A stretch of 64,000 bases of DNA from Candidatus Alloenteromonas pullistercoris (GTDB lineage: Bacteria; Bacillota_I; Bacilli_A; RFN20; CAG-826). Of the stretch, positions 1-60,482 are shown one piece after another. The translations under genes and the position numbers were made by a program. The notes beneath the pieces were generated by a model that saw only the letters and a list, made by a program, of their open reading frames with translations, did not search any database and was not told the origin of the DNA. Every line of letters begins with the position of its first letter. The first letter of the stretch is position 1. The stretch spans positions 5,754 through 69,753 of the forward strand of contig JADINA010000007.1 in assembly GCA_017694295.1 (NCBI GenBank), given 5' to 3'.

Positions 1-1
1 T

Positions 2-1606
2 TCATGCCGCCCCTCCTTCAAATGACAGGAAAGCCCTCTCGGATTTGGCCTCGAATAGGATGACGGCGGGCACGAATAGGCATAGGCTAAGCCCAAGCAA
101 GAGGATATATGGGGAAATCCCGGAGAAGCCATCGAGGAGGGTGAGCAAAGCCGGGATGCCGGCGAAAAGGAACGGGAGGAGGAAGAAAAGCGATTTGAGG
201 TAGGCCATCTTGCTTTGCCTAAGCCCGGAAAGCCCGGTGAGGGCGGAAAATAGGTAAATCGAGGAAAGGAAGAAGGCGCCGGAAAGCAAAAGGAAGGGGA
301 AGGCGGGCCAAGAGACGTCGCCGAGGATGGAAAGGGAAAGAAGCGAGGCGGCATAGGCTAAAAAGCCCCAGAAAAGGGGAAGGGCGATTTTAGCCCGAAG
401 CTGGGCTTTGGGGGAGATGGGGAAGGTCTTAAGCAAGCTTAGGCGCCTCCCCTCCTTCTCTAGGCTTAGCCCCCCGGCCCCGTTTATGACGAAAAGGAAG
501 AGGAAGATGGTCGCCACCTGGATGAAGAAGCTCCAGCCCGGGAAGAGGTTGGAGATGAAGTTCAGGTTCCCGGTATGGAAGATGACCCCGATGGCGTGGA
601 CGACCGAGACGCTTAGGAAGGGGCTAGCCAAGACGAGGGAAAAGAAGGAAAGGACGCCGTCGCTATTGGAGGAGAGGACGAGGAACTCCTTCGAAAGAAG
701 AGCGTGCATCGGGGAGCGGAGGCCTTTGAAATAGCTTCTTTTCCTTTTTCCCTTGGGCTTCTCCCCCATTATGTAGAAGCGGAAAAAGAAGAAATACAGC
801 AGCGGCGAGAAGAAGGCGAAGCAGGCGATCGGGACGATGGCGCTTAAGCTGAAGAGGTAGAAGGGGTTGGCGATGTGGGCTAGTTTAAGAAACGGGGCGA
901 ACGGATAAAGGGCGTTCCCAATCGCGTTAAGCCTTCCGATGAACTCGGTGGTCAGCGAATAGGAAAGCGAGTTGCCCAAAACCAGATCGATGAAGAGGTT
1001 AAGCAAAAGGGAATACAAATACCCCAAGCCGATCATGAGCAAAAAGGAAAACACCAGCAAAACCCACATATTTTTCTGGATCGCCTTGGAAAGAAACCGA
1101 TATAGCGGCGCGAAAAGGAAGGAAAGGCCGAGGATCAGGAGGGGGAAGATGAAACAGAAAACCCCGCAATAAAGGTAATAAGGGAAATAGGCTTCCGCCA
1201 AGGCCCCATAGCAAATGGCGATGGGGAAGATTAGGAGAAGGACATAGGCGAAAGCGAGGCAATAGAAGAAGGCGGCTTTGGCGAGGAAGACATCGACTGG
1301 CCTAACCGGGACGGGCCCCAATATCCGCCTTTCCCGGGAGTCGAAGAAGGAGGAGGCGACCCGGGGCAAGATGGCAATCGCCCCGGCAAGGGAAAGCAGG
1401 CATAAGAGGATGGCGGTAAGGGAAAGGCTGGCCCCTTGATATGGGGAAAGGAGATTGAAGGCCTCGCGGTAAGCGAAGACCTCGATGCCGACGCATAGGG
1501 CGGCGGAAATCAAAACCAAGACGAGATAAAGCCATTTCGCGGTCCTGCTCCCTTTTGAGAAAATGGGCAAGGAGGAGAATTCGCGGTAAAACAAGACGGT
1601 GATCAT
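2..1606 (-). CDS. ABC-2-type exporter permease (multi-TM); C-terminus truncated by window edge
   Basis: 534-aa ORF of hydrophobic helices; 4-nt overlap (1603..1606) with the ABC ATPase gene upstream indicates translational coupling. Confidence 0.55.
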   Translation of the reverse strand: MITVLFYREFSSLPIFSKGSRTAKWLYLVLVLISAALCVGIEVFAYREAFNLLSPYQGASLSLTAILLCLLSLAGAIAILPRVASSFFDSRERRILGPVPVRPVDVFLAKAAFFYCLAFAYVLLLIFPIAICYGALAEAYFPYYLYCGVFCFIFPLLILGLSFLFAPLYRFLSKAIQKNMWVLLVFSFLLMIGLGYLYSLLLNLFIDLVLGNSLSYSLTTEFIGRLNAIGNALYPFAPFLKLAHIANPFYLFSLSAIVPIACFAFFSPLLYFFFFRFYIMGEKPKGKRKRSYFKGLRSPMHALLSKEFLVLSSNSDGVLSFFSLVLASPFLSVSVVHAIGVIFHTGNLNFISNLFPGWSFFIQVATIFLFLFVINGAGGLSLEKEGRRLSLLKTFPISPKAQLRAKIALPLFWGFLAYAASLLSLSILGDVSWPAFPFLLLSGAFFLSSIYLFSALTGLSGLRQSKMAYLKSLFFLLPFLFAGIPALLTLLDGFSGISPYILLLGLSLCLFVPAVILFEAKSERAFLSFEGGAA

Positions 1607-2370
1607 CTTGGCTTCTCCATCTTCGAAAGCGAAAGGAAATAGGGGGTTACCTCATAACGGAGGGAAGGGTCCTCCCGCAGGTCGAACACCCGGTTGATGA
1701 CCCCGTCGTAGATAATCGCGATGCGGTCGGCGATGGAGGATACCATCTCGATGTTATGCGAGGCGACGAAGACGGTCCGCCCATGCTCGGAGAACTCCTT
1801 CATCATGAGGGTGAGCTCGTGGCTGGTGACGGCGTCTAGCCCCACCGTCGGCTCGTCCATTACCCAAATATGGGGGTTATGGATAAGCGAGGCGATTAGG
1901 CCAAGCTTCTGCTGCATGCCATGGCTATATTCCTTTATCGGGCGGGAAAGGTCCTCGGGGCTTAGGTCAAGCCGCTTGCTTAGGTAATCGAGGTTCTTCT
2001 CGAAAACAGCGTCCTCGACTTTGTAGATCGATCCGATGAACTCAAGGTAGCGGAGGCCCGACATCTGATCATACGAAAGCGGCTCGGAGGGGACGTAGCC
2101 GATAATCTTTTTGGCGGCGATGGCGTCTTCGACGATCGAATGTCCCTCGACGGCTATCTCTCCCTCATCAAAGGTCTTTATGCCGATAAGGGAATCGATG
2201 GTCGTCGATTTGCCAGCCCCGTTGCTGCCGATAAAGGCAAAAAGCTCGCCTTCGCGGACCTCTAGGTCAAGGCCTTTTAGCACCTCATGGGATCCATAGG
2301 ATTTGCGGAGGCCTTTTATGGAGATGGAAACATTCCCTACCATTGGCTTACCTGCCCCGTTATCGTCCAT
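1603..2370 (-). CDS. ABC transporter ATP-binding protein
   Basis: Walker A GSNGAGKST, ABC signature YSHGMQQKLGL, Walker B IWVMDEPTVGLD; true start probably the internal M (MVGNVSI). Confidence 0.9.
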   Translation of the reverse strand: MDDNGAGKPMVGNVSISIKGLRKSYGSHEVLKGLDLEVREGELFAFIGSNGAGKSTTIDSLIGIKTFDEGEIAVEGHSIVEDAIAAKKIIGYVPSEPLSYDQMSGLRYLEFIGSIYKVEDAVFEKNLDYLSKRLDLSPEDLSRPIKEYSHGMQQKLGLIASLIHNPHIWVMDEPTVGLDAVTSHELTLMMKEFSEHGRTVFVASHNIEMVSSIADRIAIIYDGVINRVFDLREDPSLRYEVTPYFLSLSKMEKPR

Positions 2371-4991
2371 CCGGAACTTGAATTATAGCTAACCGACCTG
2401 CAAAGATGGTCATAGTACGTATACACTATGAAGCCGGTGCGAGTCTGAGAATTATTAAAACCGGCAAATTTAAACAATTTAATCGAGGAATCGGAAGCTC
2501 GATAGGGCATAAATCCCCCTTGGTAGAAGGCGTAAGTGGAGCCGTTATAAGTGGCAATATTATTTGAATATGTGACCTGGCGCCACTGCCCGGAAAGCGA
2601 ATTGGTTGTCCCTCCCGACTTGCCATTATAGGAATAATAAACATGCTCAGCCTTCCCGGAGGGGTCATCGTAAATAAAGGCGTAATAGACGTTGTTGCTG
2701 CCGTTTCTGGCATTGATGAGGCCGGTTTTGCGGTCGTAATAGGTGTTTGTTAGGCCGCTTCCGTTTTCCAAAGTCATCCAAATCTCGCCATTGGAAATAA
2801 GCGGGCAGCTATAAAGCGAGGCGACGTTTATCTGATGCATTTCTACGAGTGTACCTAGTTTGGCGGTAGAAGGCCCAGACATAGCCACCGATCCCCAAAG
2901 CTGGACGGAAGAGCCGTTTATATACGAGTCGAAGGCCGACTTGGATGGGAAGTTGATCTCCCCGCCCAAAACGTAGGGAACCGCGTTGCCGGAAGTGAAT
3001 TGGAGTTTTGCATAGCAATCGAAACGGGCCGGTATCTCGGCGTAATAATTCCAAAAACGGCTTCGACTACCCCATGTCCAGGTGCCGTGGCCTTCGTTGC
3101 TGTTGCCATAGGACTTCCTGGTGTCGTACCACCCTTTCCGCTCCTTGGAATCCGGATAAATATCAACGTCATCCGTTTCCTCTGTTATATGTATATTACT
3201 TGCATTCCCGATGTCCGAATTGTAATAGTTTTGGACCAATACCAACCCGGCGGCGCAATTAGTTTTTTGATCATCGGCATAATTCATATAAACGGCATTG
3301 ATGTAATCTCCGATAGACGCGGAACCATGGTCAAAATAAATCGTAGAGGCCGCATCTGCATAAAGATAGCACCCTGGCATGAAGGCGTACTCCTGATGTA
3401 GGCGGATTTTCGAACCGTACGAATAGAAATCGTAATACGGCGGGATCCATTTTTGATAACGGTAGGACGTAATAGATATATCAATACCCAAACCAAAATC
3501 TATATGCATATTGACGGCGAGGGCACATATTTCGATTTCGGCATTGACGAAATAGTATTTTATCTTTTGATAGGTGACGTCCTTATAGGCGCGGTCGTTG
3601 GTCAAAGCTGTGTAATTGGTCCCATGGGCTTTAACGATGGTGTCATAAAGTTCCTTGTTATATTCCATCTTTCGGATGATGGAACCGCTGGAGAGGCGAA
3701 TCCAAGCCGAGGAAGATGGGGACCCGATAATATAAAGATCTGTATAAACGCTTCCTTGGCTTTTGCCAAAGGAGACATATAGCTTCCCATAGAAATTGCA
3801 CCCGGCCTCAAAGACGATTTCGCAATCGAGGTAGGGGCAGCGGAACATCTGCATCCAATCCATGCCCCCGGCGTAAATCTCGGGAATCGAATTCTCGCGC
3901 CACATATCCTCAAAGACGAAAGTCGAATACAAAGTCGCCCCGCTTTTGAGGATGAGGCGGCCATCCCTTTCAGAAGAGGAATCGGTTATCGACCCAAAAG
4001 CATCGATCATCGAACCAGATTCGAGGATGAGGTCATATCCGTTCAGATCCAATTCGGAATAGGGCCCGCAGATGAATCCTTGCGCATTCAGCTGCGTCCA
4101 TTGCAGGTTCATCGAAGTGTCCTCAACGTCTTGCCTTGCAAATCCGGTTAAAGCGCCCAAAGTGAAATTTCCCGACAGAATAACGTCGTTTTGCAGGGTA
4201 AACCGGGCAAAGCAATACTCGCTTTGGTTATTGGCGGCTATCGACCCCCCATTGCTTATATCGGTCCTTTTGCTTAAATCGACTGGCTTGTAGTAATGGT
4301 TGTAAGCCGTATTCGTATTGGCTCCATTCGGATAATCCGCCGGGTGCGTCTCCAAGCCAATTGAGCTTTTGGAATTGGCGAAAGGCCCGTTGGGGACGGA
4401 GGATCCGTTGCGGACCAAATAAGGTTGGGTGCCGTTTTGGTTGCTATGGGCATACCATCTGTCCGAGTTTGTATCCTCCTTATACTGGGCTTGCGTGCCA
4501 GAACTGCTGTTGTAGCAATTGACCAATGGGACCGAGAAATCGATGGCTATGTCGAGCCCGCCGTTGGCATTGCCGATATTGCCGGATCCGCTGGTGTTTA
4601 TCGACGTATTGACCTGCTCCGGGTTTCCCTTTGTATAGGTTTCCAAATACCAATTGTCTAGGGTGACCGACTGAGGGCTTTCAGTCCTAAACGTCAGCTT
4701 CGCCTCCCCAACCGTCACGTGTTTATGGAGGTATTCGCCGGAATCGGATTTCCAAGTATAGAAGGCATTGTTGTATTTGACTCCCGGGGCATCCCCAAGC
4801 GACAAAACGTCGCCGGGGTTGAAATACTCAGTCGTGGTAACCCCGTTGGGGTCGATAAAATCGACTTGGGTCAATCCTTCCTCGCTAAGGTCGGCCTCGC
4901 CGTTTTTCATATCGAGCATCCCGAAAGAGGGGACGGCTAGGCAAAGAAAGGAAACCGCGCCGATTATAAAGGAAGCCGATGCTTTCCTCAT
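2337..4991 (-). CDS. Large secreted Tyr/Asn/Ser/Gly-rich surface protein (884 aa), function unknown
   Basis: N-terminal signal peptide (FIIGAVSFLCLAVPSFG); aromatic/Asn-rich beta-type composition, no recognisable catalytic motif; noticeably lower GC than neighbours. Confidence 0.6.
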   Translation of the reverse strand: MRKASASFIIGAVSFLCLAVPSFGMLDMKNGEADLSEEGLTQVDFIDPNGVTTTEYFNPGDVLSLGDAPGVKYNNAFYTWKSDSGEYLHKHVTVGEAKLTFRTESPQSVTLDNWYLETYTKGNPEQVNTSINTSGSGNIGNANGGLDIAIDFSVPLVNCYNSSSGTQAQYKEDTNSDRWYAHSNQNGTQPYLVRNGSSVPNGPFANSKSSIGLETHPADYPNGANTNTAYNHYYKPVDLSKRTDISNGGSIAANNQSEYCFARFTLQNDVILSGNFTLGALTGFARQDVEDTSMNLQWTQLNAQGFICGPYSELDLNGYDLILESGSMIDAFGSITDSSSERDGRLILKSGATLYSTFVFEDMWRENSIPEIYAGGMDWMQMFRCPYLDCEIVFEAGCNFYGKLYVSFGKSQGSVYTDLYIIGSPSSSAWIRLSSGSIIRKMEYNKELYDTIVKAHGTNYTALTNDRAYKDVTYQKIKYYFVNAEIEICALAVNMHIDFGLGIDISITSYRYQKWIPPYYDFYSYGSKIRLHQEYAFMPGCYLYADAASTIYFDHGSASIGDYINAVYMNYADDQKTNCAAGLVLVQNYYNSDIGNASNIHITEETDDVDIYPDSKERKGWYDTRKSYGNSNEGHGTWTWGSRSRFWNYYAEIPARFDCYAKLQFTSGNAVPYVLGGEINFPSKSAFDSYINGSSVQLWGSVAMSGPSTAKLGTLVEMHQINVASLYSCPLISNGEIWMTLENGSGLTNTYYDRKTGLINARNGSNNVYYAFIYDDPSGKAEHVYYSYNGKSGGTTNSLSGQWRQVTYSNNIATYNGSTYAFYQGGFMPYRASDSSIKLFKFAGFNNSQTRTGFIVYTYYDHLCRSVSYNSSSGWTITGQVSQW

Positions 4992-5623
4992 ATCGCCTCC
5001 TTAAACGAAATGCCAAAGGACGAAAATGACAATCCCGGGTTGGTCGGAGAGCTGACCGGAACCTCGATGGAGCAAGTGAAGTTAAAGGCGTTGATGGTGT
5101 TATTGACCCCCGATTCGCCATATAGGCCCTCGATGCTATCGTGTTCGAAATCGGATGCAAGGTTTTGATCCAAGACGTAATAGGAAATCGCGGCCTGCCC
5201 ATTTGCCGAGGACCGCGAATACGGATTGAAATAGCGGCTCCCTTCGTAATCGGCCAAAAGATAGCAATGGGCGGCATACGCGTCGAAGGTGCCCGAATAG
5301 GCGAAAAGGAAATCGACGGCTTCGAATTCCTTCACCCCGGAGGAGCTATACCAATATTTGCTTATCGATCCGCGGGGGATGGTAAGCGAGGCCGAGGCGA
5401 CGAGGGTATAGCCCCGCGCATCCCTGACTATCCTTTGCGTCGCCGAGTTGATGACGATTATCTCCGGGTCGAAATCGCGGTTTATCGCGACTTCGCCTAG
5501 CCTAACCTGCTCTTTGGCCTCGAAGGCGCCGCTGAGGGAAAGGGCGCCATAGGTCGCGACCGCGCTTGTAAGCGGGAGGCAAAGGGCGAAAGCCATTATG
5601 GAAAGGCGGTTCCCCCACTTCAT
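4988..5623 (-). CDS. Secreted TasA/camelysin-like protein (paralog 2)
   Basis: Signal peptide ending AVATYGALSLSGAFEA, resembling the SipW-dependent TasA N-terminus (GGT[FWY]A.F.D) and the N-terminus of ORF 10534..11181; 4-nt overlaps with both neighbouring genes. Confidence 0.45.
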   Translation of the reverse strand: MKWGNRLSIMAFALCLPLTSAVATYGALSLSGAFEAKEQVRLGEVAINRDFDPEIIVINSATQRIVRDARGYTLVASASLTIPRGSISKYWYSSSGVKEFEAVDFLFAYSGTFDAYAAHCYLLADYEGSRYFNPYSRSSANGQAAISYYVLDQNLASDFEHDSIEGLYGESGVNNTINAFNFTCSIEVPVSSPTNPGLSFSSFGISFKEAI

Positions 5624-6723
5624 GAAGCGTCCTCCGCAAAGCAGGCGTAGGCGGTGAAGTCCTTGGTCACCGGCGTCAAATCAGTGATCTTGGTCGCCGA
5701 AAAGGATTCCTCGCCATAGGGGTTGGTATACCATCCGAGGAAAGTCGACCCCTCCTTCTCGGCCCGAGGCAAAACCGGAAGCGGGCTTCCGGCCTTAACC
5801 CGCTGGGTTGGGCTGAAGGAGGCGGGCACGACGATGCGGCCCCCGTTGGTCTCGGCGTCGAATTTGACGGTGTAATACACCGCTTCGCCCATGGCGAACT
5901 GCAAAACCCAGGCGCCGTCATCATAACGCCAAACGGCCCCGTTGAGGGAATCGAAGTAGAAATCGCCCTCCTTGGCCTCGCGGATGTTGTAGGGATCGCC
6001 GGAATTGGTGAACCACTTGGTCCCGTCCTCAACTTGGGGAAGCGGGAAGGTGAGGGTCTGCGGCTCATCGGTTTGGGTGAAATGGATTATGAGGTAGTAG
6101 TTTTCCTCATCGGAGAAGCTTTCGATGTAGGCGATGCCATTGCCGTCTTTCCCGCTTTGGGAGGGAAGGCGGATCTCGGTGTTGGGGACGGATTCGTCGG
6201 TGTATTCGATGGTGATGAGGACATCCCCGTTTTCCAGGGTTTCCTGCGACACCGAGGCAATTCCGTTGCCGTCTTTCCCCTTTGGCAAATCGAAGGTATG
6301 GTCCTCCCCGTCGTTGGTCGAGATGGTGACGGTCGTCATCCCGGTTTCGGGGTCGTAGGCGCTTTCGATGTCCTCGATCGAGGTGGCGTTTGGGATACTC
6401 CAGACCGAGGGCTCAAGCGAGGCGTCGGTGTAGGTCATGGTGATGATGAGGCTGCTCCCGTCCTCGCTTAGAACCGAATCGACCGAAGCGATGCCGGTCC
6501 CCATCGGGCCCTGCTCGCCCGTCTCCCCTTGGGGGACGTAGAAGACGACGGGGGGTATGTCCTCGTCGGTGAAGGTGATGGTGACCTTGGTTGAGCCATC
6601 TGGCTGCTCTTCGGCCAAAACCGATTCGATGAAAAGCGATTCCTCGCTGCCAAGGAGCATGTTGCAGGAGGATAGGGCGAAAAGCCCGGCGGCCCCCAAA
6701 AGAAGTTTCCTAAGCAGCTTCAT
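5620..6723 (-). CDS. Lipoprotein with collagen-like G-x-x triplet repeats and C-terminal Listeria-Bacteroides (Flg_new) repeat
   Basis: Start moved to in-frame ATG at 6723 (MKLLRKLLLGAAGLFALSSC lipobox) with AAAGGAGA RBS; three ~40-aa repeats (GETGEQGPMGTGIASV / GKDGNGIASV / GKDGNGIAYI); C-terminal YTVKFDAETNGG...GSTFLGWYTNPYGEE...FTAYACF. Confidence 0.6.
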   Translation of the reverse strand: MKLLRKLLLGAAGLFALSSCNMLLGSEESLFIESVLAEEQPDGSTKVTITFTDEDIPPVVFYVPQGETGEQGPMGTGIASVDSVLSEDGSSLIITMTYTDASLEPSVWSIPNATSIEDIESAYDPETGMTTVTISTNDGEDHTFDLPKGKDGNGIASVSQETLENGDVLITIEYTDESVPNTEIRLPSQSGKDGNGIAYIESFSDEENYYLIIHFTQTDEPQTLTFPLPQVEDGTKWFTNSGDPYNIREAKEGDFYFDSLNGAVWRYDDGAWVLQFAMGEAVYYTVKFDAETNGGRIVVPASFSPTQRVKAGSPLPVLPRAEKEGSTFLGWYTNPYGEESFSATKITDLTPVTKDFTAYACFAEDAS

Positions 6724-7831
6724 AGCCATTCTCCTTTCCCCTGAACGGGAGGTCGTAAACCCAAAGGAACCGCTCGCCGTTGCGGTCGTATTCGCCAAAG
6801 AGGGCACCGCATTCGTGACAGCGCCCACCTTCGCGGAGCCCGCCGCAGATCGGGCAATAACGCGGATAGGCGGGGAGAGTAAGGAAAAGCAACTTCAGGG
6901 GCAACGAGGAGTCGATGGCCCCAAAAAGCGAGGCGCTTGCCTTTTTCCCGTCTTCGGAAAGCAATTCGTAACGCGGGTAGAAGAAAGAGGGCCGAGGCAA
7001 AAGGAAATACGACTTAGAAGAGGAATCGAAGGCGTTTTCCCCCTTAACGAGGAGCCCCTCGCCTTTTTTCTCGATGACGATGGAGAAATCCGAATAGGCA
7101 AAGCGGATCCCCGATTTCGTCTTGCTTGGCCGCCTGCCGGAGGAGAAATCGCCGACGATCCTATTCAAATCGGCTTCGGGGTTATAGGAACGGCGGGAGG
7201 AGGCATAAGCCTTATAAAGCGTCCCATAGAGGGGATCGTAGGCCAAGGCGTTGGTCAGATGGACGTCTTGCTCCCTTATCGGCTCTACCGAAAGGAAGAA
7301 GCCGGTTTGCAGCAACCCGGAGGCTTCGGCTCTAAGCGAAAGCAGCTCCTCGAGCATGGAAAGCTTTTCCCTTTGCTTGCCCCGATAGGCGTCTTCGGCG
7401 TAATCGATGATCGGGAGGGCGTTACCGAATTTGGAATAGTCAAGCCCCTCCCCAAGTATCGGGAGGAGCGAGGAATCGCGCCTAAAGGCGGAAGAGGCGG
7501 CGTTAAGCTCGGCGAAAAGCTCGGTTAGGATGAATTTGGCGAAGCGGTTCTCGTAGGTCGAGAAATCGTCCTCGACCTCCGGGCAAAGCACCTCTTTGGG
7601 GGTAAGCCTCCCGTTTAGGTAGCCGAAATGCTTGCTCTTCCTCGCCGTCAAAGCGAAAAGTCGCCTTGAGAAGGAGGAGGCTTGGCTAAGCTTGCGGAGG
7701 GTCTCCTCCTGCCTTAAGCCCTTCCTGGAGAAGCGGACGATGTTCTCAAGGCAATCCAAAATGACGCGGCATGAGGAAGGCGAGGGGGCGAGGGCCCGTT
7801 CGCGGGTATAGGAGGCGAAAGAGAGGCTCAT
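6710..7831 (-). CDS. Cytoplasmic protein with C-terminal zinc ribbon (CPICG...CHECG); candidate partner/effector of the upstream AAA ATPase
   Basis: 373-aa ORF, 4-nt overlap with the ATPase gene; CxxC...CxxC ribbon; a D...E.K-like stretch (SDFSIVIEKK) could be a PD-(D/E)xK nuclease motif but is unverified. Confidence 0.5.
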   Translation of the reverse strand: MSLSFASYTRERALAPSPSSCRVILDCLENIVRFSRKGLRQEETLRKLSQASSFSRRLFALTARKSKHFGYLNGRLTPKEVLCPEVEDDFSTYENRFAKFILTELFAELNAASSAFRRDSSLLPILGEGLDYSKFGNALPIIDYAEDAYRGKQREKLSMLEELLSLRAEASGLLQTGFFLSVEPIREQDVHLTNALAYDPLYGTLYKAYASSRRSYNPEADLNRIVGDFSSGRRPSKTKSGIRFAYSDFSIVIEKKGEGLLVKGENAFDSSSKSYFLLPRPSFFYPRYELLSEDGKKASASLFGAIDSSLPLKLLFLTLPAYPRYCPICGGLREGGRCHECGALFGEYDRNGERFLWVYDLPFRGKENGYEAA

Positions 7832-9609
7832 CCAAGCCTCCTTATCTCGTAATCGATGGAGGAAAGGCTCCTCTTGAAGGAGTCACCATAGGTCTTCTTT
7901 ATATAGCTGGAAAGCTCATGGAGCCCGCCCCGATAGGAGGCGTCGACCCTTCCTTTGGCCTTGCGGAGGACCTTGAAGGCGAATAGGTAATCGAGGGCCC
8001 CCTCCTTCTCGCCGGTCATGGCGGCGTAGCAGGGGGTAAGGTCCTTGGCTTGGTTGAGGAAGCGGTTGCCGGTTTTCACGTCAAGCAGTTCCCCGGCTTT
8101 CCTAAGCAAGTCGGAAAGCTTCTTCATCTCGGCGGAGGAAAGGGAAAGCTTCCTGTCCTTCCTCGCCTCAAGGGCCAATGAATTGAGCTCTTGGTAGGAA
8201 AGGGGCGTTGGCTTGGCCTTGGTTTCGAATTCGATGGGCTCATGGAATTCGTCGAAGTCGAGAACGACCGCCCTATCGATGACCTTGTCGGTGATGGCGA
8301 AGGTCGAGTCGTCGGTGTTGGCGGTCCCGACGAAGCGGGTATTCGGGGTTAAGGCGAGATCGCCCTCGCCTAGGTGGGCCGGAGCCTCGCCGGGGATGTT
8401 ATAAAGGTGGATCTTCCTTTCGCCCTCGGGGAACTCAAGCACCGAGAGGAAGTCGGCGAAATAGTACTCGATGCGGGAGATGTTCATCTCGTCGAGGACC
8501 ATGATGTTGAGGTGGCTTAGCCGGTACGTCGACTCGTAAAGCCGCTTAAGGAACTCGGTCTCGGAGTAAACCCCGGTGAAGTCGTTGTAATAGCCCAGGA
8601 TATCATCGCGGTCCTTATAGGTCATCTGGACGGATTCGAAATAGGCCGTCTCGCCGATGAATTTGGCGAAGTAGCGCGGCAAGCTCGATTTGCCAGTGCC
8701 CGAAACGCCCTCGAGGATGGTGATCGGGGCGGTGAGCAAGGAGGATGCGAACATCGCGAGGTCCTCAAGCGAATAGTAAAGCGAGCAGCTGGTGGCTAGG
8801 TAGTTTTGCAGCTCGGCTACGATCCTCTTTAGGCTAAGGTCTTGCTTGGGCAAGGCGAGGCTTTGCTCGCCAAGGACGAAGCGCGAATCGATTTTGCTTA
8901 GCTCGGGGAACACCCTTTCCCGGTCATAGGATACCGGGGCGGACGCGCCCCCGGAAACAAGGGCCCCGCCGATGGCAACGGTTCCACCCTCCCCCTTCTT
9001 CGAATCGAAGGAGGCGGTGACGTCGTCCTCGCTTGGATCCTTTTTCTCCTCCGTTTCCTCGCCCTTTGGGGCGGCGGCCCCGGAGGCGGGGAGGCTGGGC
9101 CTAGAGGCGAAGGGGAGGGAGAGGATAAGCAAATAGATGGCGAAGACGATGGCGTAGATGCAGGCGAAAGCCAAAAGGCTGATAAGCAGCGACTGCCCGA
9201 CGAATTGGAGGTGGAGGGCAACCCCCTCGGCCCCGTTGGGGATGGAGAAAAGCATGCCGACGCCGATGAAGACGATGAACCCGGCCACCCCGATTAGGAT
9301 CATGTAAAGGAGCAACCCGGAGTCGCGGAGCGTCTTCCCGTCCTCCTTCACCTTGTTGATGACGGCGAAAAGGGCGATCGACCCGGCGATGAGGTAAAGT
9401 CCGAGGAAAAGGAGGATGATGTATCCCCCGATGGCCGGCTCGATCTTCGGGAAGCCAAACAGCTCCCCGATGGAAGCGATGATGTTGTTCTTGTTGAAGA
9501 CGACGTAGCTCGCGTCGAGCCCGCCGGCGACGAAGAAGCTTAGCAAAACGAAGAAAATAACCGAGGCCACGATGGCCTTTTGCCTTGGCGAGAAACGCAA
9601 TATCCTCAT
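7828..9609 (-). CDS. Membrane-anchored McrB/AAA_5-family ATPase (GTPase-like)
   Basis: Four N-terminal TM helices, acidic linker, then Walker A GVSGTGKSS, Walker B MVLDEMN, and NTRFVGTANTDD...VIDRAVVLDF typical of the McrB/dynein-related AAA_5 family. Confidence 0.7.
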   Translation of the reverse strand: MRILRFSPRQKAIVASVIFFVLLSFFVAGGLDASYVVFNKNNIIASIGELFGFPKIEPAIGGYIILLFLGLYLIAGSIALFAVINKVKEDGKTLRDSGLLLYMILIGVAGFIVFIGVGMLFSIPNGAEGVALHLQFVGQSLLISLLAFACIYAIVFAIYLLILSLPFASRPSLPASGAAAPKGEETEEKKDPSEDDVTASFDSKKGEGGTVAIGGALVSGGASAPVSYDRERVFPELSKIDSRFVLGEQSLALPKQDLSLKRIVAELQNYLATSCSLYYSLEDLAMFASSLLTAPITILEGVSGTGKSSLPRYFAKFIGETAYFESVQMTYKDRDDILGYYNDFTGVYSETEFLKRLYESTYRLSHLNIMVLDEMNISRIEYYFADFLSVLEFPEGERKIHLYNIPGEAPAHLGEGDLALTPNTRFVGTANTDDSTFAITDKVIDRAVVLDFDEFHEPIEFETKAKPTPLSYQELNSLALEARKDRKLSLSSAEMKKLSDLLRKAGELLDVKTGNRFLNQAKDLTPCYAAMTGEKEGALDYLFAFKVLRKAKGRVDASYRGGLHELSSYIKKTYGDSFKRSLSSIDYEIRRLG

Positions 9610-9622
9610 TTTGCTTAGCTCC

Positions 9623-10513
9623 TTACTTGCGATAGCTTATGTCTATTTTATCGGACTTGACCTTTTTGTCGACGGTCCCGACGTAGGATGAATCGAATCT
9701 GATGGTGCCTTCCGGGCAGCTGTAGATGACTTCTTTCGCCCCTTTGGCGAAAAGCCCGTCATAGGCTTTCAGCCTTTCCTCCTTCCGCTTGTCGGAGAGG
9801 CCGAAATATATCTCGGCCGCGATGATGCAATAGGCCAGCGAGGACATCCCGAGTATCCCGTAGTCGTCTTGGAGGTAGATGGTTATCGAGCCAAGCACCG
9901 GTATCCTTATCCCGGCGTAGCGGCCGTTGACCATCTCCAGGGTGACGCGGACGTTGTCCGGGGTCGAGTTGGCGTCGCCTTGGGTGAGGAGAGAGCCGTC
10001 GTCGTAGAAGCCGACGACCCGGTGGATGACGTTTATGCCCTCGGGATGGGCGTAGCTCACGATGTCGTAAAGCTTGATGGCCTCTAGGGAATCGACCCTT
10101 TCGATGACGACGATGTCGTCGACCTGCAGCCTTTCATCGTGCCCTTGCAGCTCCTGCGCCCTTTCCGGGGCGAGAGTGGACATCGACGGGGTCAAGACGA
10201 CTCCCAGCGAATAAGGGATCCCCAAGCCCGGCATTGCGCGCGTGAAGATCAAAACCGCGCACACGCCAAGCACCAAGAAGAAGAAGCAGTTGCCCAAAAT
10301 GGCTGCCGCTTTGCGGGCCCCGCGGGCCTTTTTCGAGCGCGAGCAGCTCACCACCTTCTCCTCAAGTATCTCGAAATCGAGCTTCCCCTCGCCCGTTTCC
10401 TTCTTGTCGACGCGAAGCATCCAAATCAAGAAGGCGGTGAGGGCGAGGAGAAGGACGATGACCGATACCAGGACGATGGTGAAGACGATTGAAAGGCAAA
10501 CCGGGAAAGCCAT
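9623..10513 (-). CDS. sipW: SipW-type (ER/archaeal-type) signal peptidase I with extra N-terminal TM and C-terminal extension
   Basis: Box B LTPSMSTL (Ser nucleophile), box C VDDIVVIE, box D NVIHRVVG (His rather than Lys), box E TQGDANSTPD; 296 aa versus ~190 aa for B. subtilis SipW. Confidence 0.7.
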   Translation of the reverse strand: MAFPVCLSIVFTIVLVSVIVLLLALTAFLIWMLRVDKKETGEGKLDFEILEEKVVSCSRSKKARGARKAAAILGNCFFFLVLGVCAVLIFTRAMPGLGIPYSLGVVLTPSMSTLAPERAQELQGHDERLQVDDIVVIERVDSLEAIKLYDIVSYAHPEGINVIHRVVGFYDDGSLLTQGDANSTPDNVRVTLEMVNGRYAGIRIPVLGSITIYLQDDYGILGMSSLAYCIIAAEIYFGLSDKRKEERLKAYDGLFAKGAKEVIYSCPEGTIRFDSSYVGTVDKKVKSDKIDISYRK

Positions 10514-10533
10514 CCCCTATATTATATAAGGAA

Positions 10534-11181
10534 TTAGGCGCCGGCTCCCGAGGCTAGCTGAACCGTGACGGTGCAGGTGATGGTCGTGGAGTTGATGGCG
10601 GTTTGGAAAGCTTCCATCGCATCCCAGGCGCCGTTCCCATCGGGATAGGTGGTGTTGACCCACTTGAGGAAGCCGCCTTGATATTTCGAAGCCCACTCAA
10701 GGGTGATGGGGAGGGTGCAGGTCTTGACGGTGTCGACGCCCTCGCCCTCGCCTTCTTGCGCCCAAGCGGGATCAAGGCTTTCTTTCGCGACGGTGATGGT
10801 TTTGTTAGAAAGAGTCAGATAGGTCTCGTCGCTGATCTTGACGGTGACGGTGACGCTGGCCCAGGATTCGGGATTTCCGGTGACGGAAAGGCCAAGGGAG
10901 AACGTGCGGTCGTTTTTCGCGTCGCCATCGACCTGGCCAATATTGTTGTCGGTCAGGTCCTCGTATCCATCGACATCAAGGACACCTTCTTTGACGGAGG
11001 CGGCGAGGTTAACGACGTTGTTCTGGATGACGACGTCGCTGATGTTGATGCCGTCATTCACGTCTTGCGTCTTGTTCCCGCCGGAGAGGGTGAGGGCGGC
11101 GTAGGTGCCGCCGATCGTCGCAACCGCGCCTAGGACTAGTGCGCTGGTGACGACGAGCTTTATTTTGCTTGTTTTGGTCAT
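10534..11181 (-). CDS. Secreted TasA/camelysin-like protein (paralog 1)
   Basis: Start re-assigned to ATG at 11181 (MTKTSKIKLVVTSALVLGAVATIGGTYAALTLSGG) with GGAGG RBS 8 nt upstream; N-terminus matches the TasA/camelysin signal (GGTFAYFSD-like); lies directly upstream of the SipW-like gene as in tapA-sipW-tasA. Confidence 0.55.
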   Translation of the reverse strand: MTKTSKIKLVVTSALVLGAVATIGGTYAALTLSGGNKTQDVNDGINISDVVIQNNVVNLAASVKEGVLDVDGYEDLTDNNIGQVDGDAKNDRTFSLGLSVTGNPESWASVTVTVKISDETYLTLSNKTITVAKESLDPAWAQEGEGEGVDTVKTCTLPITLEWASKYQGGFLKWVNTTYPDGNGAWDAMEAFQTAINSTTITCTVTVQLASGAGA

Positions 11182-11289
11182 CAAAGTGACCTCCTTGTGA
11201 TTGAAAGATAAGGAGCGATGGAAAGACCTTACAAGCAAAAATTCGAAAAAGTTTGCAATTTGTTTTTTCATTGACGTCCCTTTTAACAT

Positions 11290-11498
11290 ACTTTTGCGGG
11301 TAATTGTGTTGCTTTGCGCCTTTTTCCGACTGCCTCTAAGACGGTTTACAAAGTTGATAGTTTCATTCTAATAAAGTTAGTTTTCGAACTTTTTCCTTAT
11401 TTTGTTTTGAAAATTCGAGGATTTTTCGCAATTTATATATAAGAAAATATGCATGTGGATATTCCAAAACGAGGAAAAAAGACATAAAATACGTATAT
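11290..11498. promoter_or_regulatory. AT-rich divergent intergenic region; probable promoters for the minus-strand TasA/SipW operon and the plus-strand Fic-like gene
   Basis: ~210 bp of markedly AT-rich sequence between divergently oriented genes; contains TTGACG, TTGAAA and TATATAT elements; exact -35/-10 not assigned. Confidence 0.35.
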
Positions 11499-12458
11499 AT
11501 GGATAGGATTTCTTCGCCCTACCGGGCCTCATTCTCCACATCCAACGCGGTGGTCATGGCCTTGACCTCGCTTGCCTTCAAAGCCGGGCGCCTTTCCTCT
11601 TTGGCTTATAAACAAGACATTGACGAAGCCTCCTTGGAGGAATCCAAGGCGTATTTGAGGTCGGTCGGCGTGAAGCTCACGCCCTCCCAGGCCCGCGGCC
11701 TAGGGTTAGGGGAAAACGTGAAATCCGCCCCGATCGCCAAGCCGACGACAGAGCTTTTCAAAGCCGTCAACAGGCAAGGGCCATTGGGGAAGGAGTTCGT
11801 CGAACGCTTTGCCAAAATTCTTTGGGGGGAAGACGTGCCGGTTAGGCTATCCCGCCGGGTCAAGGGCTTCGATTACCCGATCCCGCCCCACGCCAAGGTG
11901 GACGGCCTCCTTGACAAGACCTTTGCCTTCCTCGCCCAGGCCGATGGCAAGGTAAGCCCCCTACTTCTTTCCGGGCTTTGCCTATACATGGTGATGGCGA
12001 TCATGCCCTTTAGCGAGCATACCCTTCTTCTCGCGATACTTTTCGCCAAGGGTGAGCTCATCAGCTTCCGGCGGGAGTTCGTCGGAGTCAATCTGACCAA
12101 GCACCTTTTGGAAAACGAACAGACCCTATCCGAGGCTTACGCGAAAGCAAACGAGAAAAGCGACATGGCCCCCTACCTCATCGCCTATATGGGCGTGGTC
12201 GAGGAGGCGATCGAGGAGGCGATCCGCCGAGGTGTGAGCAAACGGGGCGGTCTCACCCCGATGGCCAAACGGATGGTCGAGTTAATGGAGGATGGCCGCT
12301 ACTACAGCGCCGCCGAGCTGCTTGGCATTTTGGGGTTGAAGTCGAGGCTCGGTTTGCAGAAGAATTACCTTCAGCCGGCCTTAAAGGCCCGGCTCATCGA
12401 GATGAGCAACCCGCTCTCCCCCACCGACAGGAACCAGCGTTACCGCCTCAAGAAATAG
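11499..12458 (+). CDS. Fic/DOC-family-like protein with degenerate active-site motif and C-terminal wHTH
   Basis: Fic-like helical core with MPFSEHTLLLA in place of canonical HPFx(D/E)GNGR; C-terminal SAAELLGILGLKSR...RYRLKK typical of Fic-associated winged helix. Confidence 0.45.
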   Translation: MDRISSPYRASFSTSNAVVMALTSLAFKAGRLSSLAYKQDIDEASLEESKAYLRSVGVKLTPSQARGLGLGENVKSAPIAKPTTELFKAVNRQGPLGKEFVERFAKILWGEDVPVRLSRRVKGFDYPIPPHAKVDGLLDKTFAFLAQADGKVSPLLLSGLCLYMVMAIMPFSEHTLLLAILFAKGELISFRREFVGVNLTKHLLENEQTLSEAYAKANEKSDMAPYLIAYMGVVEEAIEEAIRRGVSKRGGLTPMAKRMVELMEDGRYYSAAELLGILGLKSRLGLQKNYLQPALKARLIEMSNPLSPTDRNQRYRLKK

Positions 12459-25602: not shown

Positions 25603-25608
25603 TATACA

Positions 25609-29413: not shown

Positions 29414-29495
29414 GCATCGCCTCTGCAAAACGGGACAGGCCAGGTTGTCAACCGATAAGAGGGGTTTTATAATTATTCCAAGGAGGTTTCCGAAA

Positions 29496-30734: not shown

Positions 30735-30764
30735 GCCCACAGCAATAGTATCATTCCTCCGTTT

Positions 30765-60458: not shown

Positions 60459-60482
60459 CGCTTTCCTTTCCGGTTCAACTTG

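What the first reader, a model, noticed from the sequence alone, without database searches (positions are those of the whole stretch)
2..11289. Nine-gene translationally coupled operon: TasA-like x2 + SipW-type peptidase + membrane McrB-like AAA ATPase + zinc-ribbon protein + surface proteins + ABC exporter
All nine ORFs on the minus strand overlap or abut by 4 nt (ATGA-type junctions at 1603/1606, 4988/4991, 5620/5623, 7828/7831), so they are probably one transcript from the AT-rich region at 11290..11498. Known tapA-sipW-tasA loci contain only the peptidase and its fibre substrates. Here the SipW/TasA pair is joined to a cytoplasmic-side AAA_5 (McrB-family) ATPase with a 4-TM anchor, a zinc-ribbon protein, a collagen-like lipoprotein, an 884-aa Tyr/Asn-rich secreted protein and a dedicated ABC-2 exporter. 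I do not know this gene combination as a described system. It could be an ATP-driven secretion/assembly apparatus for a TasA-like fibre or surface layer, or alternatively a membrane-tethered McrBC-like defence module co-transcribed with surface proteins.
Basis: partly seen in the sequence, partly recalled or inferred. Interest (0 to 1): 0.82.

Follow-up and report, generated by a model that had tools for sequence, protein, structure and literature searches.

The report
McrBC-motor surface-protein assembly operon
A tightly packed operon, conserved in uncultured gut bacteria, joins a nuclease-less relative of the McrBC restriction motor, anchored in the membrane, to a SipW-type signal peptidase, its secreted substrates and an ABC transporter; it most likely builds a cell-surface structure and is not a phage defence.

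Summary
The nine minus-strand genes are real and tightly coupled. The operon runs past the window edge and has 11 genes. The combination is not chance. In the 80 closest species genomes that carry the ATPase, the McrC-like gene follows it in 80, the SipW-like peptidase is present in 74, the ABC ATPase in 77, the permease in 71, the 832-aa protein in 68 and the lipoprotein in 66. All sit in one co-diverging locus.

"TasA-like" is not supported. Sequence profiles and fold searches find only a generic beta-sandwich. These proteins do share a highly conserved signal ending in G-F-A-A-W, which resembles the TasA cleavage site.

The best reading is a dedicated surface fibre or appendage assembly system driven or gated by an exapted McrBC-type motor. 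The closest named thing is the uncharacterised "CoCoPALM" class, mentioned in passing in 2024. A defence role is disfavoured. The window holds a separate, genuine defence island about 12 kb away.

The parts
1..5 (-). Start codon of g10, cut by the window edge. g10 is an 832-aa N-terminally anchored extracytoplasmic protein; the full gene is at L002:11602-14100. g11 (228 aa, about 6 TM, L002:14103-14789) follows it outside the window.
   Evidence: The ATGA overlap with the g9 stop is shown. The full genes are on the source contigs. g10 is present in 68 of 80 related loci and is 62% identical in L003. It has no Pfam or PDB sequence match.
2..1606 (-). g9: 534-aa polytopic membrane protein (about 12 or more hydrophobic segments), the presumed permease partner of g8.
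   Evidence: ORF. There is no Pfam or NCBIfam hit. It always follows g8 and is present in 71 of 80 loci.
1603..2343 (-). g8: ABC transporter ATP-binding protein. It is 246 aa from the ATG at 2343; an alternative ATG at 2370 gives 255 aa.
   Evidence: Pfam ABC_tran 2.4e-23 and NCBIfam DrrA subfamily 3.7e-50. It is present in 77 of 80 loci.
2337..4991 (-). g7: 884-aa secreted protein, Tyr+Asn 15.8%. It is the second fastest-evolving component, after g6.
   Evidence: There is no Pfam or PDB match. Relatives occur in 34 loci, usually right after a small g1-like gene. It is 37% identical in L003. Relatives carry looser forms of the same N-terminal signal motif.
4988..5623 (-). g6: 211-aa small secreted protein with a SipW-type-looking signal (…AVATYGALSLSG…). 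It occupies the position held by g1-family paralogues in other loci.
   Evidence: In 7 of 11 window-type loci the gene in this position is g1-like by HMM. The window's g6 itself is not detectably g1-like (hhalign E 0.21). It is the fastest-evolving gene, at 31% and 24% identity.
5620..6723 (-). g5: 367-aa lipoprotein with three ~45-aa repeats that each begin with a short Gly-rich run, and a C-terminal Listeria-Bacteroides repeat (Flg_new) domain.
   Evidence: The lipobox Cys20 is conserved in 97% of homologues. Flg_new scores 3.9e-10. It is present in 66 of 80 loci.
6710..7831 (-). g4: 373-aa cytoplasmic McrC-like protein. It has a DUF2357 (McrC N-terminal) domain and a C-terminal CPxC…CxxC zinc ribbon, and no PD-(D/E)xK nuclease.
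7828..9609 (-). g3: 593-aa protein with four N-terminal TM helices, a disordered acidic/Gly linker and a cytoplasmic McrB-like AAA+ NTPase of the NxD type.
   Evidence: Hydropathy is. Walker A (GxSGTGKSS), Walker B (VLDEMN), the GTAN-x-D-D-ST motif and DKVxDRA are invariant in 20 homologues. AAA_5 matches 19 of 20 members below the Pfam cut-off. PADLOC PDC-M26A scores 8.4e-36. It is 27-37% identical to plasmid McrB-like ATPases that have DUF2357 partners.
9623..10513 (-). g2: 296-aa SipW/archaeal-type (S26B) signal peptidase. Compared with a ~190-aa SipW it has an extra N-terminal TM, a cytoplasmic loop and a C-terminal cytoplasmic tail.
   Evidence: NCBIfam sigpep_I_arch 3.4e-11 and SipW 1.2e-10, both below cut-off. 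Ser110, His164-Arg165, Gly179-Asp180 and Asp186 are conserved in at least 99% of 76 sequences. It is present in 74 of 80 loci, directly upstream of g3.
10534..11181 (-). g1: 215-aa secreted beta-sandwich subunit with a highly conserved signal peptide (…GGTYA|AL…). It is the founding member of a paralogous family present in 1-7 copies upstream of the peptidase in related loci.
   Evidence: The ribosome-binding site and start are. The AF2 core has pLDDT around 80-90, and residues 1-55 are not modelled confidently. The G-F-[AS]-[AST]-W-[IV] motif occurs in 138 of 199 family members against 7 of 1136 background ORFs. Residues 1-35 are 83% identical on average and the rest 45%.
11182..11498 (.). 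AT-rich intergenic region between g1 and the divergent Fic-like gene; it presumably holds the promoter.
   Evidence: GC is 0.416 for 11001-11500. The sigma-70 consensus scan found no strong promoter there, so the promoter position is inferred only.

Best explanation
This is a chromosomal, vertically inherited, 10-11-gene envelope system of uncultured gut Bacillota. The window comes from a Candidatus Alloenteromonas/Enteromonas MAG, and relatives are labelled Bacilli, Mollicutes or Acholeplasmatales. The system most likely exports, processes and assembles a proteinaceous cell-surface structure, such as a sortase-independent fibre, pilus or other appendage.

Proposed mechanism. Shown steps rest on sequence features and conservation; inferred steps are marked.
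1. The small beta-sandwich proteins (g1 family, g6) and the large protein g7 are exported with a special, strongly conserved signal ending in G-F-A|A-W (window: G-T-Y-A|A-L). The motif is shown; the cleavage position is inferred.
2. The dedicated SipW-type peptidase g2, whose active site faces outward, removes the signal. The active-site residues are shown; that these proteins are its substrates is inferred.
3. The new N-terminus and the ~25 unmodelled residues behind it act as an assembly interface, so that subunits polymerise. g6 and g7 are the fast-evolving distal parts, and the lipoprotein g5 is a membrane anchor or base (inferred).
4. A ring of the membrane-anchored McrB-like NTPase g3, with the nuclease-less McrC-like g4 inserted as its activator or 'shaft', supplies NTP-driven force or a gating checkpoint on the cytoplasmic side. 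It may dock on the extra cytoplasmic segments of g2 (inferred by analogy with McrBC architecture).
5. The ABC pair g8/g9, together with the conserved anchored protein g10, forms a second energised module. It either exports a further component or transmits force to g10 (inferred).

The motor has been exapted from a restriction-type McrBC ancestor. It kept the NTPase and the McrC N-domain, lost the DNA-binding and nuclease parts, and gained TM helices and a zinc ribbon.
For: Conserved locus:
- At least 558 species genomes encode a g3 relative.
- In the 80 best loci, iterated HMMs find g4 in 80, g8 in 77, g2 in 74, g1-like genes in 72, g9 in 71, g10 in 68 and g5 in 66. All lie on the same strand in two fixed arrangements that differ only by moving the g5-g6-g7 block.
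- All ten genes co-diverge, and flanking housekeeping synteny (Fic-like, infC-rpmI-rplT) is kept in L003 and L004.

Motor:
- There is no nuclease in g4. No other cytoplasmic protein in the operon exists besides the ABC ATPase.

Peptidase and substrates:
- The g2 catalytic residues are conserved.
- The signal motif is enriched about 100-fold in g1-like proteins and appears in looser form in g7-like proteins.
- The signal region is far better conserved than the mature part, the pattern expected when a dedicated machine recognises it.
- The motif parallels the TasA site, which has an aromatic residue at P2' and needs SipW (PMC10269814 abstract).

Evolutionary rates: cytoplasmic and membrane parts are the most conserved and g6/g7 the least, as expected for machinery versus exposed parts.

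Context:
- Housekeeping genes surround the locus.
- The genome's real defence island lies elsewhere in the window.
- Literature: McrB-like NxD GTPases linked to signal-peptidase or 'pilus assembly' genes have been noted. Related orders lack sortases and standard teichoic-acid pathways.
Against: - No experiment or transcript data exist.
- The mature g1 fold is only a generic beta-sandwich with no specific similarity to TasA or to any pilin, so polymerisation is conjecture.
- I could not model oligomers.
- The roles of g3/g4 and of the ABC module are assigned by analogy only.
- g7, g9, g10 and g11 have no recognisable domains.
- Four related loci carry the g3-g4 pair without the peptidase or ABC genes, so the pair can exist on its own.
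- The 80 loci examined are those most similar to the query, so prevalence among the roughly 480 remaining hits is unknown.
- The g4 model is of low confidence (pLDDT 62).
Confidence: 0.5

Rival explanations
1. The locus is a housekeeping envelope system for a surface layer or glycopolymer. It makes or maintains a non-filamentous coat, such as an S-layer-like protein coat or an exported polymer handled by the ABC-2-type transporter and g10. The McrBC-like pair acts only as a regulator or quality-control ATPase and not as an assembly motor.
For: - The g8 ATPase belongs to the DrrA/ABC-2-like group, whose members commonly export surface polymers (established knowledge).
- g10 is as conserved as the ATPase (62%) and has invariant Asp/Asn/Gly motifs, which suggests an enzyme or structural core.
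- Related orders are predicted to have thin walls and to lack the standard teichoic-acid pathways.
- The g1 fold is a generic beta-sandwich, like many carbohydrate-binding modules.
Against: - The operon has no glycosyltransferase, polymerase or flippase genes.
- The 1-7 tandem paralogues of a small subunit with a machine-specific signal are more typical of fibre or pilus subunits.
- g10 has no match to any lyase or hydrolase family.
Confidence: 0.25
2. The g3/g4 pair is a membrane-tethered McrBC-like anti-phage module. The pair senses infection and the TM domain, or the surface proteins, acts as the effector through abortive infection or receptor masking. It is merely co-transcribed with surface genes.
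For: - g3's NTPase core matches the PADLOC candidate PDC-M26A (8.4e-36).
- It also matches plasmid-borne McrB-like ATPases that sit next to DUF2357/PDDEXK_7 nucleases, an EVE domain and a DNA methylase.
- It belongs to the NxD branch that holds the predicted defence systems CoCoNuT.
- Stand-alone g3-g4 pairs exist, as does an extra TM-McrB/McrC pair in L081.
- TM domains are common effectors in abortive-infection systems (established knowledge).
Against: - There is no nuclease or other recognisable effector. g4 lacks PD-(D/E)xK, and its region 210-320 is unconserved.
- g4 does not match PDC-M26B or any other PADLOC model.
- No plasmid or phage relative covers the TM part.
- Linkage to nine envelope genes is fixed, with co-divergence down to about 33% g3 identity.
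- The neighbours are housekeeping genes with conserved synteny.
- The window's own RM and PLD-helicase island is separate.
Confidence: 0.1
3. The locus is a DNA-translocation (uptake or export) apparatus. g3 has the FtsK/SpoIIIE-like layout of four TM helices, a disordered linker and a hexameric motor. It would pump nucleic acid, with the zinc-ribbon protein g4 binding the nucleic acid and the secreted proteins forming a capture fibre.
For: - The architecture parallels FtsK/SpoIIIE (established knowledge of that family).
- McrB is a DNA-dependent translocating motor (abstracts).
- g4 has a conserved zinc ribbon.
Against: - In solved McrBC complexes McrC occupies the ring's central pore (PMC6624300 abstract), which leaves no channel for DNA.
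- g3 has lost the N-terminal DNA-binding domain.
- The operon has no competence, relaxase or nuclease genes.
Confidence: 0.03
4. The operon is a chance juxtaposition of unrelated genes.
For: None was found.
Against: The same gene set, in the same order and on the same strand, occurs in about 70 of the 80 species genomes examined. The junctions overlap and the genes co-diverge.
Confidence: 0.01

Closest known systems
[quoted passage not shown]
   Same: - The McrB-like NTPase has the NxD(D/E) signature variant.
- It is membrane-anchored.
- It is paired with a McrC homologue.
- It is linked to a signal-peptidase-family gene.
- It is abundant in Bacillota.
   Different: - The described N-terminal fusion is FtsB-like (one TM plus a coiled coil). 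Here there are four TM helices and a disordered linker, and no DivIC/FtsB match in 20 members.
- Coiled coils are not evident.
- The paper gives no gene list, so the ABC pair, g10, the lipoprotein, the subunit family and the signal motif are not described there.
- I could not check whether this family is on their list, because the supplement held does not contain these accessions.
Canonical McrBC type IV restriction enzyme (E. coli, T. gammatolerans)
   Same: - It has an AAA+ (AAA_5) NTPase with Walker A and B, an Asn/Asp signature and an Arg.
- The partner gene overlaps by 4 nt and carries the DUF2357 N-domain.
- The best structural match of g4 is McrC.
   Different: - g3 has no DNA-binding N-domain; it has TM helices in its place.
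- g4 has no PD-(D/E)xK nuclease and carries a zinc ribbon.
- The signature is NxD and not NxxD.
- The pair is embedded in an operon of secreted and membrane proteins.
tapA-sipW-tasA (B. subtilis) and sipW-bsaA-bsaB-bsaC (C. perfringens) matrix-fibre operons
   Same: - A dedicated SipW-type peptidase is encoded next to several small secreted subunits.
- The signal peptides end in small-aromatic-Ala|Ala-aromatic.
- Several paralogous subunits are present.
- No LPXTG motif is present.
   Different: - The subunits are not Peptidase_M73/TasA family by sequence or fold.
- The peptidase has extra cytoplasmic segments.
- The locus adds an NTPase motor, an ABC transporter and three large envelope proteins, none of which is known in TasA systems.
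Type IV pilus/archaellum and flagellar/T3SS export ATPase complexes (PilB-PilC; FliI-FliJ). This is a functional analogy only.
   Same: - A hexameric cytoplasmic NTPase sits at the membrane.
- It may have a central stalk-like partner.
- It is encoded with a dedicated peptidase and with subunits whose N-terminal ~35 residues are the best-conserved part.
   Different: - There is no homology to those ATPases, platform proteins, prepilin peptidases or pilins.
- The signal is Sec/SPase-I type, with cleavage after the hydrophobic segment and not before it.
PADLOC candidate system PDC-M26
   Same: The g3 NTPase core matches PDC-M26A (8.4e-36).
   Different: - Only residues ~259-404 align to a 724-position model.
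- g4 matches no PADLOC model.
- No paper describing PDC-M26 was found.

Membership tests
McrBC (McrB-like NTPase + McrC) | AAA+ domain of the AAA_5/McrB type with intact Walker A, Walker B and an arginine | tested here: met
   G301-K307-S308, D373-E374 and R446 are invariant in 20 homologues. AAA_5 is the best Pfam family in 19 of 20 members, but below the gathering score (best 1.4e-4). The Rhodoferax relative, 37% identical, passes AAA_5 at 26.7 bits.
McrBC (McrB-like NTPase + McrC) | NxxD (or NxD) signature motif after the sensor-1 strand | tested here: met
   The motif GTAN-x-D-[DE]-[ST]-T is invariant in g3 and its relatives and in plasmid McrB-like proteins, including an EVE-domain fusion. 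It corresponds to the NxD variant 'usually followed by E or a second D'.
McrBC (McrB-like NTPase + McrC) | Adjacent partner with the McrC N-terminal domain (DUF2357) | tested here: met
McrBC (McrB-like NTPase + McrC) | PD-(D/E)xK nuclease domain in McrC | tested here: not met
   g4 is 373 aa against 566-608 aa for canonical partners. It has no PDDEXK_7 hit, whereas the Chlorohelix partner has one at 1.9e-10. No acidic/Lys motif is conserved in residues 200-320 across 82 sequences.
McrBC (McrB-like NTPase + McrC) | N-terminal DNA/modified-base-binding domain on McrB | tested here: not met
   The N-terminal 165 residues are four hydrophobic helices. Plasmid relatives align only from about residue 230.
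McrBC (McrB-like NTPase + McrC) | GTP-specific hydrolysis stimulated by McrC | not testable with these tools
   This needs biochemistry.
CoCoPALM (Bell et al. 2024) | NxD-type McrB-like GTPase | tested here: met
CoCoPALM (Bell et al. 2024) | Association with a signal-peptidase-family gene | tested here: met
   g2 lies directly upstream of g3 in 74 of 80 loci.
CoCoPALM (Bell et al. 2024) | GTPase fused to an FtsB-like TM plus coiled-coil domain | tested here: inconclusive
   g3 is membrane-anchored, but with four TM helices and a disordered linker. No DivIC/FtsB Pfam match was found in 20 members. The authors used HHpred, which I could not run, and a short charged helix after TM4 in distant members could give such a hit.
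CoCoPALM (Bell et al. 2024) | Coiled coils in both the McrB and the McrC homologue | tested here: inconclusive
   The g4 model has long helices (18-50, 93-120, 153-174) but low confidence. No coiled-coil predictor was available.
TasA / camelysin (Peptidase_M73) fibre subunits | Sequence membership in Peptidase_M73 or similarity to solved TasA | tested here: not met
   0 of 69 locus-derived members and 0 of 133 library representatives match Peptidase_M73. No NCBIfam TasA or SipW-cognate model matches. The PDB profile search found no TasA.
TasA / camelysin (Peptidase_M73) fibre subunits | TasA-like fold | tested here: not met
SipW-dependent secretion (sipW operons) | S26B (archaeal/ER-type) signal peptidase with Ser/His catalytic residues | tested here: met
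   TIGR02228 scores 3.4e-11 and NF046067 1.2e-10, both below cut-off. Ser110, His164, Asp180 and Asp186 are conserved at 99% or more.
SipW-dependent secretion (sipW operons) | Cognate substrates encoded alongside, with a characteristic signal-peptide end | tested here: inconclusive
   A family-specific motif, G-F-[AS]-[AST]-W-[IV], occurs in 138 of 199 family members against 7 of 1136 background ORFs. It resembles the TasA site, but the NCBIfam SipW-cognate model did not match, and cleavage is untested.
ABC-2-type exporter | ABC ATPase plus ABC-2 family permease | tested here: inconclusive
   The ATPase is clear (ABC_tran 2.4e-23, DrrA subfamily 3.7e-50). The permease g9 has no family match and is assigned by adjacency and hydropathy only.
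Anti-phage defence system (PADLOC PDC-M26 / type IV restriction) | Complete set of system proteins with an effector, in a mobile or defence-island context | tested here: not met
   Only PDC-M26A matches, over the NTPase core. There is no effector. The context is housekeeping genes with conserved synteny. The window's defence island is elsewhere.

The most novel reading that the evidence does not exclude
This would be a previously uncharacterised class of NTP-driven surface-appendage machine. A McrBC restriction motor has lost its nuclease and DNA-binding parts and has become a membrane-embedded ring-and-shaft engine. Together with a dedicated SipW-type peptidase and an ABC module, it assembles (or moves) a sortase-independent fibre made of a new family of beta-sandwich subunits. 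The system is found in hundreds of species of uncultured, genome-reduced gut Bacilli.
Probability: 0.35. Interest if true: 0.9.

Novelty: new variant of a known kind. Interest (0 to 1): 0.72.

Why it matters
**Exaptation.** If the reading is right, it is a clear case of exaptation of a defence motor (McrBC) for cell-surface biogenesis.

**A possible new assembly route.** It would add a new route for assembling surface fibres in Gram-positive-type bacteria, beside sortase pili, type IV pili and spontaneous TasA polymerisation.

**Abundant but uncultured hosts.** The host group comprises RF39-like and related Bacilli of human and animal guts. It is abundant and uncultured, and it is predicted to have thin walls. 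In related orders it lacks sortases and standard teichoic acids (PMC10868615). How these cells display adhesins or contact hosts and partners is therefore an open question that this locus makes testable.

**New protein families.** The locus defines at least six protein families with no Pfam match (g1, g6, g7, g9, g10, g11), plus a recognisable export signal that could be used to predict the secreted repertoire.

**A caution for annotation.** McrB-like or PADLOC hits should not be read as defence without checking for a nuclease and the genomic context.

Tried and rejected
**Searches that found nothing useful**
- PDB sequence-profile searches with the g3, g1, g10 and g7 families gave no meaningful hit. 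McrB itself was not reached by sequence.
- Pfam and NCBIfam scans of g1, g6, g7, g9, g10 and g11 found nothing.
- Rfam and tRNA scans of the window found nothing.
- A word-based homologue search with g4 found only 6 proteins, so the g4 model rests on a shallow alignment (pLDDT 62).
- Literature searches for a CoCoPALM follow-up, for PDC-M26 and for McrB-like with signal peptidase and pilus found only the 2023/2024 CoCoNuT paper.
- The held supplement of that paper does not contain this family's accessions.

**An artefact I corrected**
- My first iterated g7 HMM drifted onto the g1 family through the shared signal region; 189 ORFs were assigned to both. I replaced it with a jackhmmer run restricted to ORFs of at least 450 aa.

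**Ideas rejected**
- TasA family membership.
- g6 as a detectable g1 paralogue.
- A true collagen-like domain in g5.
- Sortase anchoring: no LPXTG in the secreted proteins.
- A known secretion ATPase family for g3: its only matches are AAA_5/McrB-like.
- A second copy of the system in the window.
- Internal terminators that would split the operon.

Full report
**Observation**

Nine ORFs lie head-to-tail on the minus strand between 2 and about 11.2 kb. I number them g1 to g9 in the direction of transcription.

| Gene | Coordinates |
|---|---|
| g1 | 10534-11181 |
| g2 | 9623-10513 |
| g3 | 7828-9609 |
| g4 | 6710-7831 |
| g5 | 5620-6723 |
| g6 | 4988-5623 |
| g7 | 2337-4991 |
| g8 | 1603-2343 (alternative start 2370) |
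| g9 | 2-1606 |

- The other junctions are a 14-nt overlap, a 7- or 34-nt overlap, and gaps of 13 and 20 nt.
- g1 starts at 11181, behind an AAGGAGG site. This gives 215 aa, as called on the public contigs, and the upstream ATG at 11289 is not the start.
- Terminator-like hairpins inside the block are at chance level (18 found, 16.3 expected).

**True extent and origin**

- Exact-match look-ups place the window on ENA gut-metagenome contigs.
- On those contigs the operon continues with g10 (832 aa, ATGA-coupled to g9) and g11 (228 aa, about six TM). It ends at an 11-bp-stem hairpin before the convergent thrS.
- Upstream lie a divergent Fic-like gene, then infC-rpmI-rplT, thiI, a cysteine desulfurase and ezrA.
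- The g3 protein is GenBank MBO8425812.1. It is named under Candidatus Alloenteromonas/Enteromonas pullistercoris, a chicken-gut MAG, which NCBI files as Bacillota incertae sedis.
- From memory, GTDB places this genus in the order RF39.
- The rest of the window is ordinary chromosome: LeuRS, GroEL, PriA and glycogen synthase.

**Is the combination real?**

A degenerate-pattern scan of one genome per GTDB species found at least 558 genomes with a g3 relative. The 80 best were fetched with 10-kb flanks. They are labelled mostly Bacilli, Mollicutes, Acholeplasmatales or Anaeroplasmataceae MAGs, with some Clostridia. I called ORFs in them and searched with phmmer and then iterated HMMs.

| Gene | Loci with the gene (of 80) |
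|---|---|
| g4 | 80 |
| g8 | 77 |
| g2 | 74 |
| g1-like | 72 |
| g9 | 71 |
| g10 | 68 |
| g5 | 66 |
| g7-like | 34 (many cut by the locus end) |

- Two arrangements exist. The common one is [g1-like x1-7]-g2-g3-g4-g8-g9-g10-g5-(g1-like)-(g7-like).
- In the window's clade the g5-g6-g7 block sits between g4 and g8.
- Three modules therefore keep their internal order: subunits-peptidase-motor, ABC-g10, and lipoprotein-small-large.
- All ten proteins co-diverge in successive relatives. Against L003 the identities are g8 78, g3 64, g10 62, g2 58, g4 55, g1 54, g5 54, g9 44, g7 37 and g6 31%.
- L003 and L004 keep the same housekeeping neighbours.
- Chance juxtaposition is excluded.

**The motor pair**

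g3:
- It has four N-terminal hydrophobic helices, an acidic/Gly-rich linker and a C-terminal NTPase.
- The Walker A, Walker B, GTAN-x-D-D-ST and DKVxDRA motifs are invariant.
- Pfam AAA_5 is the consistent best hit in 19 of 20 members, though below threshold.
- PADLOC PDC-M26A matches the core at 8.4e-36.
- tblastn against plasmids finds 27-37% identical ATPases that align only from about residue 230.
- In Rhodoferax and Ca. Chlorohelix these are followed by overlapping DUF2357 proteins. The Chlorohelix pair has an EVE domain, a PDDEXK_7 nuclease and a neighbouring DNA methylase.
- All of these share N-x-D-[DE]-[ST]-T. This is the 'NxD' branch of McrB-like GTPases defined by Bell et al..

g4:
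- It matches DUF2357, the McrC N-terminal domain, above threshold.
- Across 82 homologues the conserved residues are a YEN motif, TN, several aromatics and a CPxC…CxxC zinc ribbon. No nuclease motif is conserved, and the protein is about 200 residues shorter than canonical partners.
- No other operon product is cytoplasmic apart from the ABC ATPase.
- The pair is therefore McrBC-derived, but it cannot be a restriction nuclease.

**Peptidase and substrates**

- g2 matches archaeal-type and SipW signal-peptidase models.
- It keeps Ser110, His164-Arg165, Gly179-Asp180 and Asp186 in at least 99% of 76 sequences.
- Relative to a ~190-residue SipW it has an extra N-terminal TM, a ~45-residue cytoplasmic loop with conserved Gly43/Asp46, and a ~55-residue cytoplasmic tail with conserved Arg247. 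These are candidate docking sites for the motor; this is inference.
- The g1 family has 1-7 tandem copies per locus. It carries a K/R-rich n-region, a hydrophobic core and the motif G-F-[AS]-[AST]-W-[IV]. The motif is present in 138 of 199 members against 7 of 1136 other ORFs. g7-like proteins show looser versions.
- The window has GGTYA|AL in g1 and ATYGAL in g6.
- The motif obeys the -3/-1 rule and has aromatic residues around the site, like TasA. The TasA site has Phe at P2' and needs SipW (PMC10269814). The TasA sequence GGTWA|AF is quoted from memory.
- In g1 orthologues, residues 1-35 are 83% identical on average and the rest 45%.

**Is g1 TasA-like?**

No test supports it.
- No Pfam, NCBIfam or PDB-profile match was found for 69 locus-derived members.
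- An exhaustive HMMER search of 1.84 billion representatives found 278 relatives. None of 133 scanned is Peptidase_M73.
- The AF2 model was built from 36 sequences. Its core pLDDT is about 80-90 and residues 1-55 are not modelled confidently. It is a beta-sandwich with two helices.
- g6 is not detectably related to g1, although g1-like genes occupy its position in 7 of 11 window-type loci.

**Other parts**

- g5 is a lipoprotein (Cys20 conserved in 97%) with three ~45-residue repeats and a Flg_new domain. Its only G-X-Y run has four triplets.
- g8 is a DrrA/ABC-2-like ATPase. g9 is a polytopic membrane protein without a family match.
- g10 is N-terminally anchored and as conserved as the motor. 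It has invariant YGNG, GQDN and similar motifs but no known domain.
- g7 is Tyr/Asn-rich and evolves fast.

**Mechanism proposed (confidence 0.5)**

Sec export delivers g1, g6 and g7, and g2 cleaves them. The subunits then assemble into a surface structure, with g5 as a lipid anchor and g6/g7 as the distal parts. The g3 ring with its g4 shaft energises or gates the process at the membrane, and the ABC/g10 module is a second energised step. Only the sequence features, topology and linkage are shown. Cleavage, polymerisation and motor coupling are inferred.

**Rivals**

- A non-filamentous envelope or glycopolymer system in which McrBC acts as a regulator (0.25).
- A membrane-tethered defence module (0.10). 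Homology to defence-type McrB and the stand-alone g3-g4 pairs in four Clostridia-labelled loci favour it. The absence of any effector, the fixed linkage, the housekeeping context, and a separate RM/PLD-helicase island at 23.6-33.2 kb count against it.
- A DNA translocase (0.03).
- Chance (0.01).

**Comparison with known systems**

- The closest named entity is CoCoPALM. It shares the NxD GTPase, a membrane anchor and signal-peptidase linkage. It is uncharacterised, and no follow-up was found.
- The described FtsB-like fusion and coiled coils are not evident here. Membership could not be checked.
- As a member of McrBC proper the system fails on the nuclease and the DNA-binding domain. As a TasA system it fails on the subunit family.
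- Functionally it resembles peptidase-plus-hexameric-ATPase appendage machines such as type IV pili or the archaellum, without homology to them.

**Novelty and importance**

- I rate it a new variant of a barely known kind.
- The full gene set, the subunit family, the signal motif, the nuclease loss and the phyletic spread are, as far as the searchable literature shows, undescribed.
- The host lineages are predicted to have thin walls. Related orders lack sortases and teichoic-acid pathways. This locus is therefore a concrete candidate for how they build surface structures.

Noticed in passing
window 23640-33202 (+): A genuine defence island lies about 12 kb from the operon. It holds a type II C5 DNA methyltransferase (23640-24944, PADLOC 5.5e-157), a type II restriction enzyme (24928-25602, 1.7e-21), a PLD-nuclease + SNF2 helicase protein resembling PbeA/PLD_Helicase (26741-29413, 3.5e-54), a double-zinc-ribbon protein (29325-30734) and three further genes with no match.
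   Followed up: partly
L002:11602-14789 (beyond window position 1): The operon continues outside the window with g10 (832 aa, conserved, no known domain) and g11 (228 aa, about 6 TM). It ends at a strong bidirectional-looking hairpin (L002:14794-14820) before the convergent thrS.
   Followed up: yes
L081:106-4451: A second, larger membrane McrB-like protein (923 aa, about 12 hydrophobic helices, GTANRDEST motif) and a McrC-like protein with several zinc ribbons (524 aa) sit directly upstream of a complete locus of the common arrangement. The membrane McrBC module therefore has paralogous forms.
   Followed up: partly
L033 and L053 (both from MAG CAJJXG01): One MAG carries both arrangements of the locus: the window-type with a single g1, and the type with six g1 paralogues. 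The two may be paralogous systems that coexist, unless the bin is chimeric.
   Followed up: no
L064, L071, L080, L082: In four Clostridia-labelled MAGs the TM-McrB/McrC-zinc-ribbon pair occurs without the peptidase, ABC or g10 genes. Each pair lies next to a Ser/Glu-rich, lipoprotein or collagen-like surface protein. In L082 the McrC-like protein is 790 aa, with a weak Prok-RING_1 match (25.8 bits, below the 29.1 Pfam cut-off) and zinc-ribbon matches.
   Followed up: partly
window 10534-11181 and homologues (alignment A3): The signal-peptide region of g1 (MTKTSK[IR]KL[IV]VTSALVLGAVAT[IV]G…) is nearly invariant among proteins whose mature parts are only 40-45% identical. This is unusual for an ordinary Sec signal.
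   Followed up: yes
window 11499-12458 (+): The divergently transcribed gene encodes a protein with a Fic-like C-terminal domain (1.6e-14). It is kept next to the locus in the closest relatives (L003, L004) but not in more distant ones.
   Followed up: no
window 57366-60530 (-): This gene encodes a 1054-aa protein with a GH81 (endo-beta-1,3-glucanase family) C-terminal domain and a bacterial surface Ig-like domain. It is another large surface or secreted protein in the same genome.
   Followed up: no
window 6557-7528 (+): A 323-aa ORF lies antisense to g4/g5. It is probably spurious, since the public contigs carry no gene call for it.
   Followed up: no
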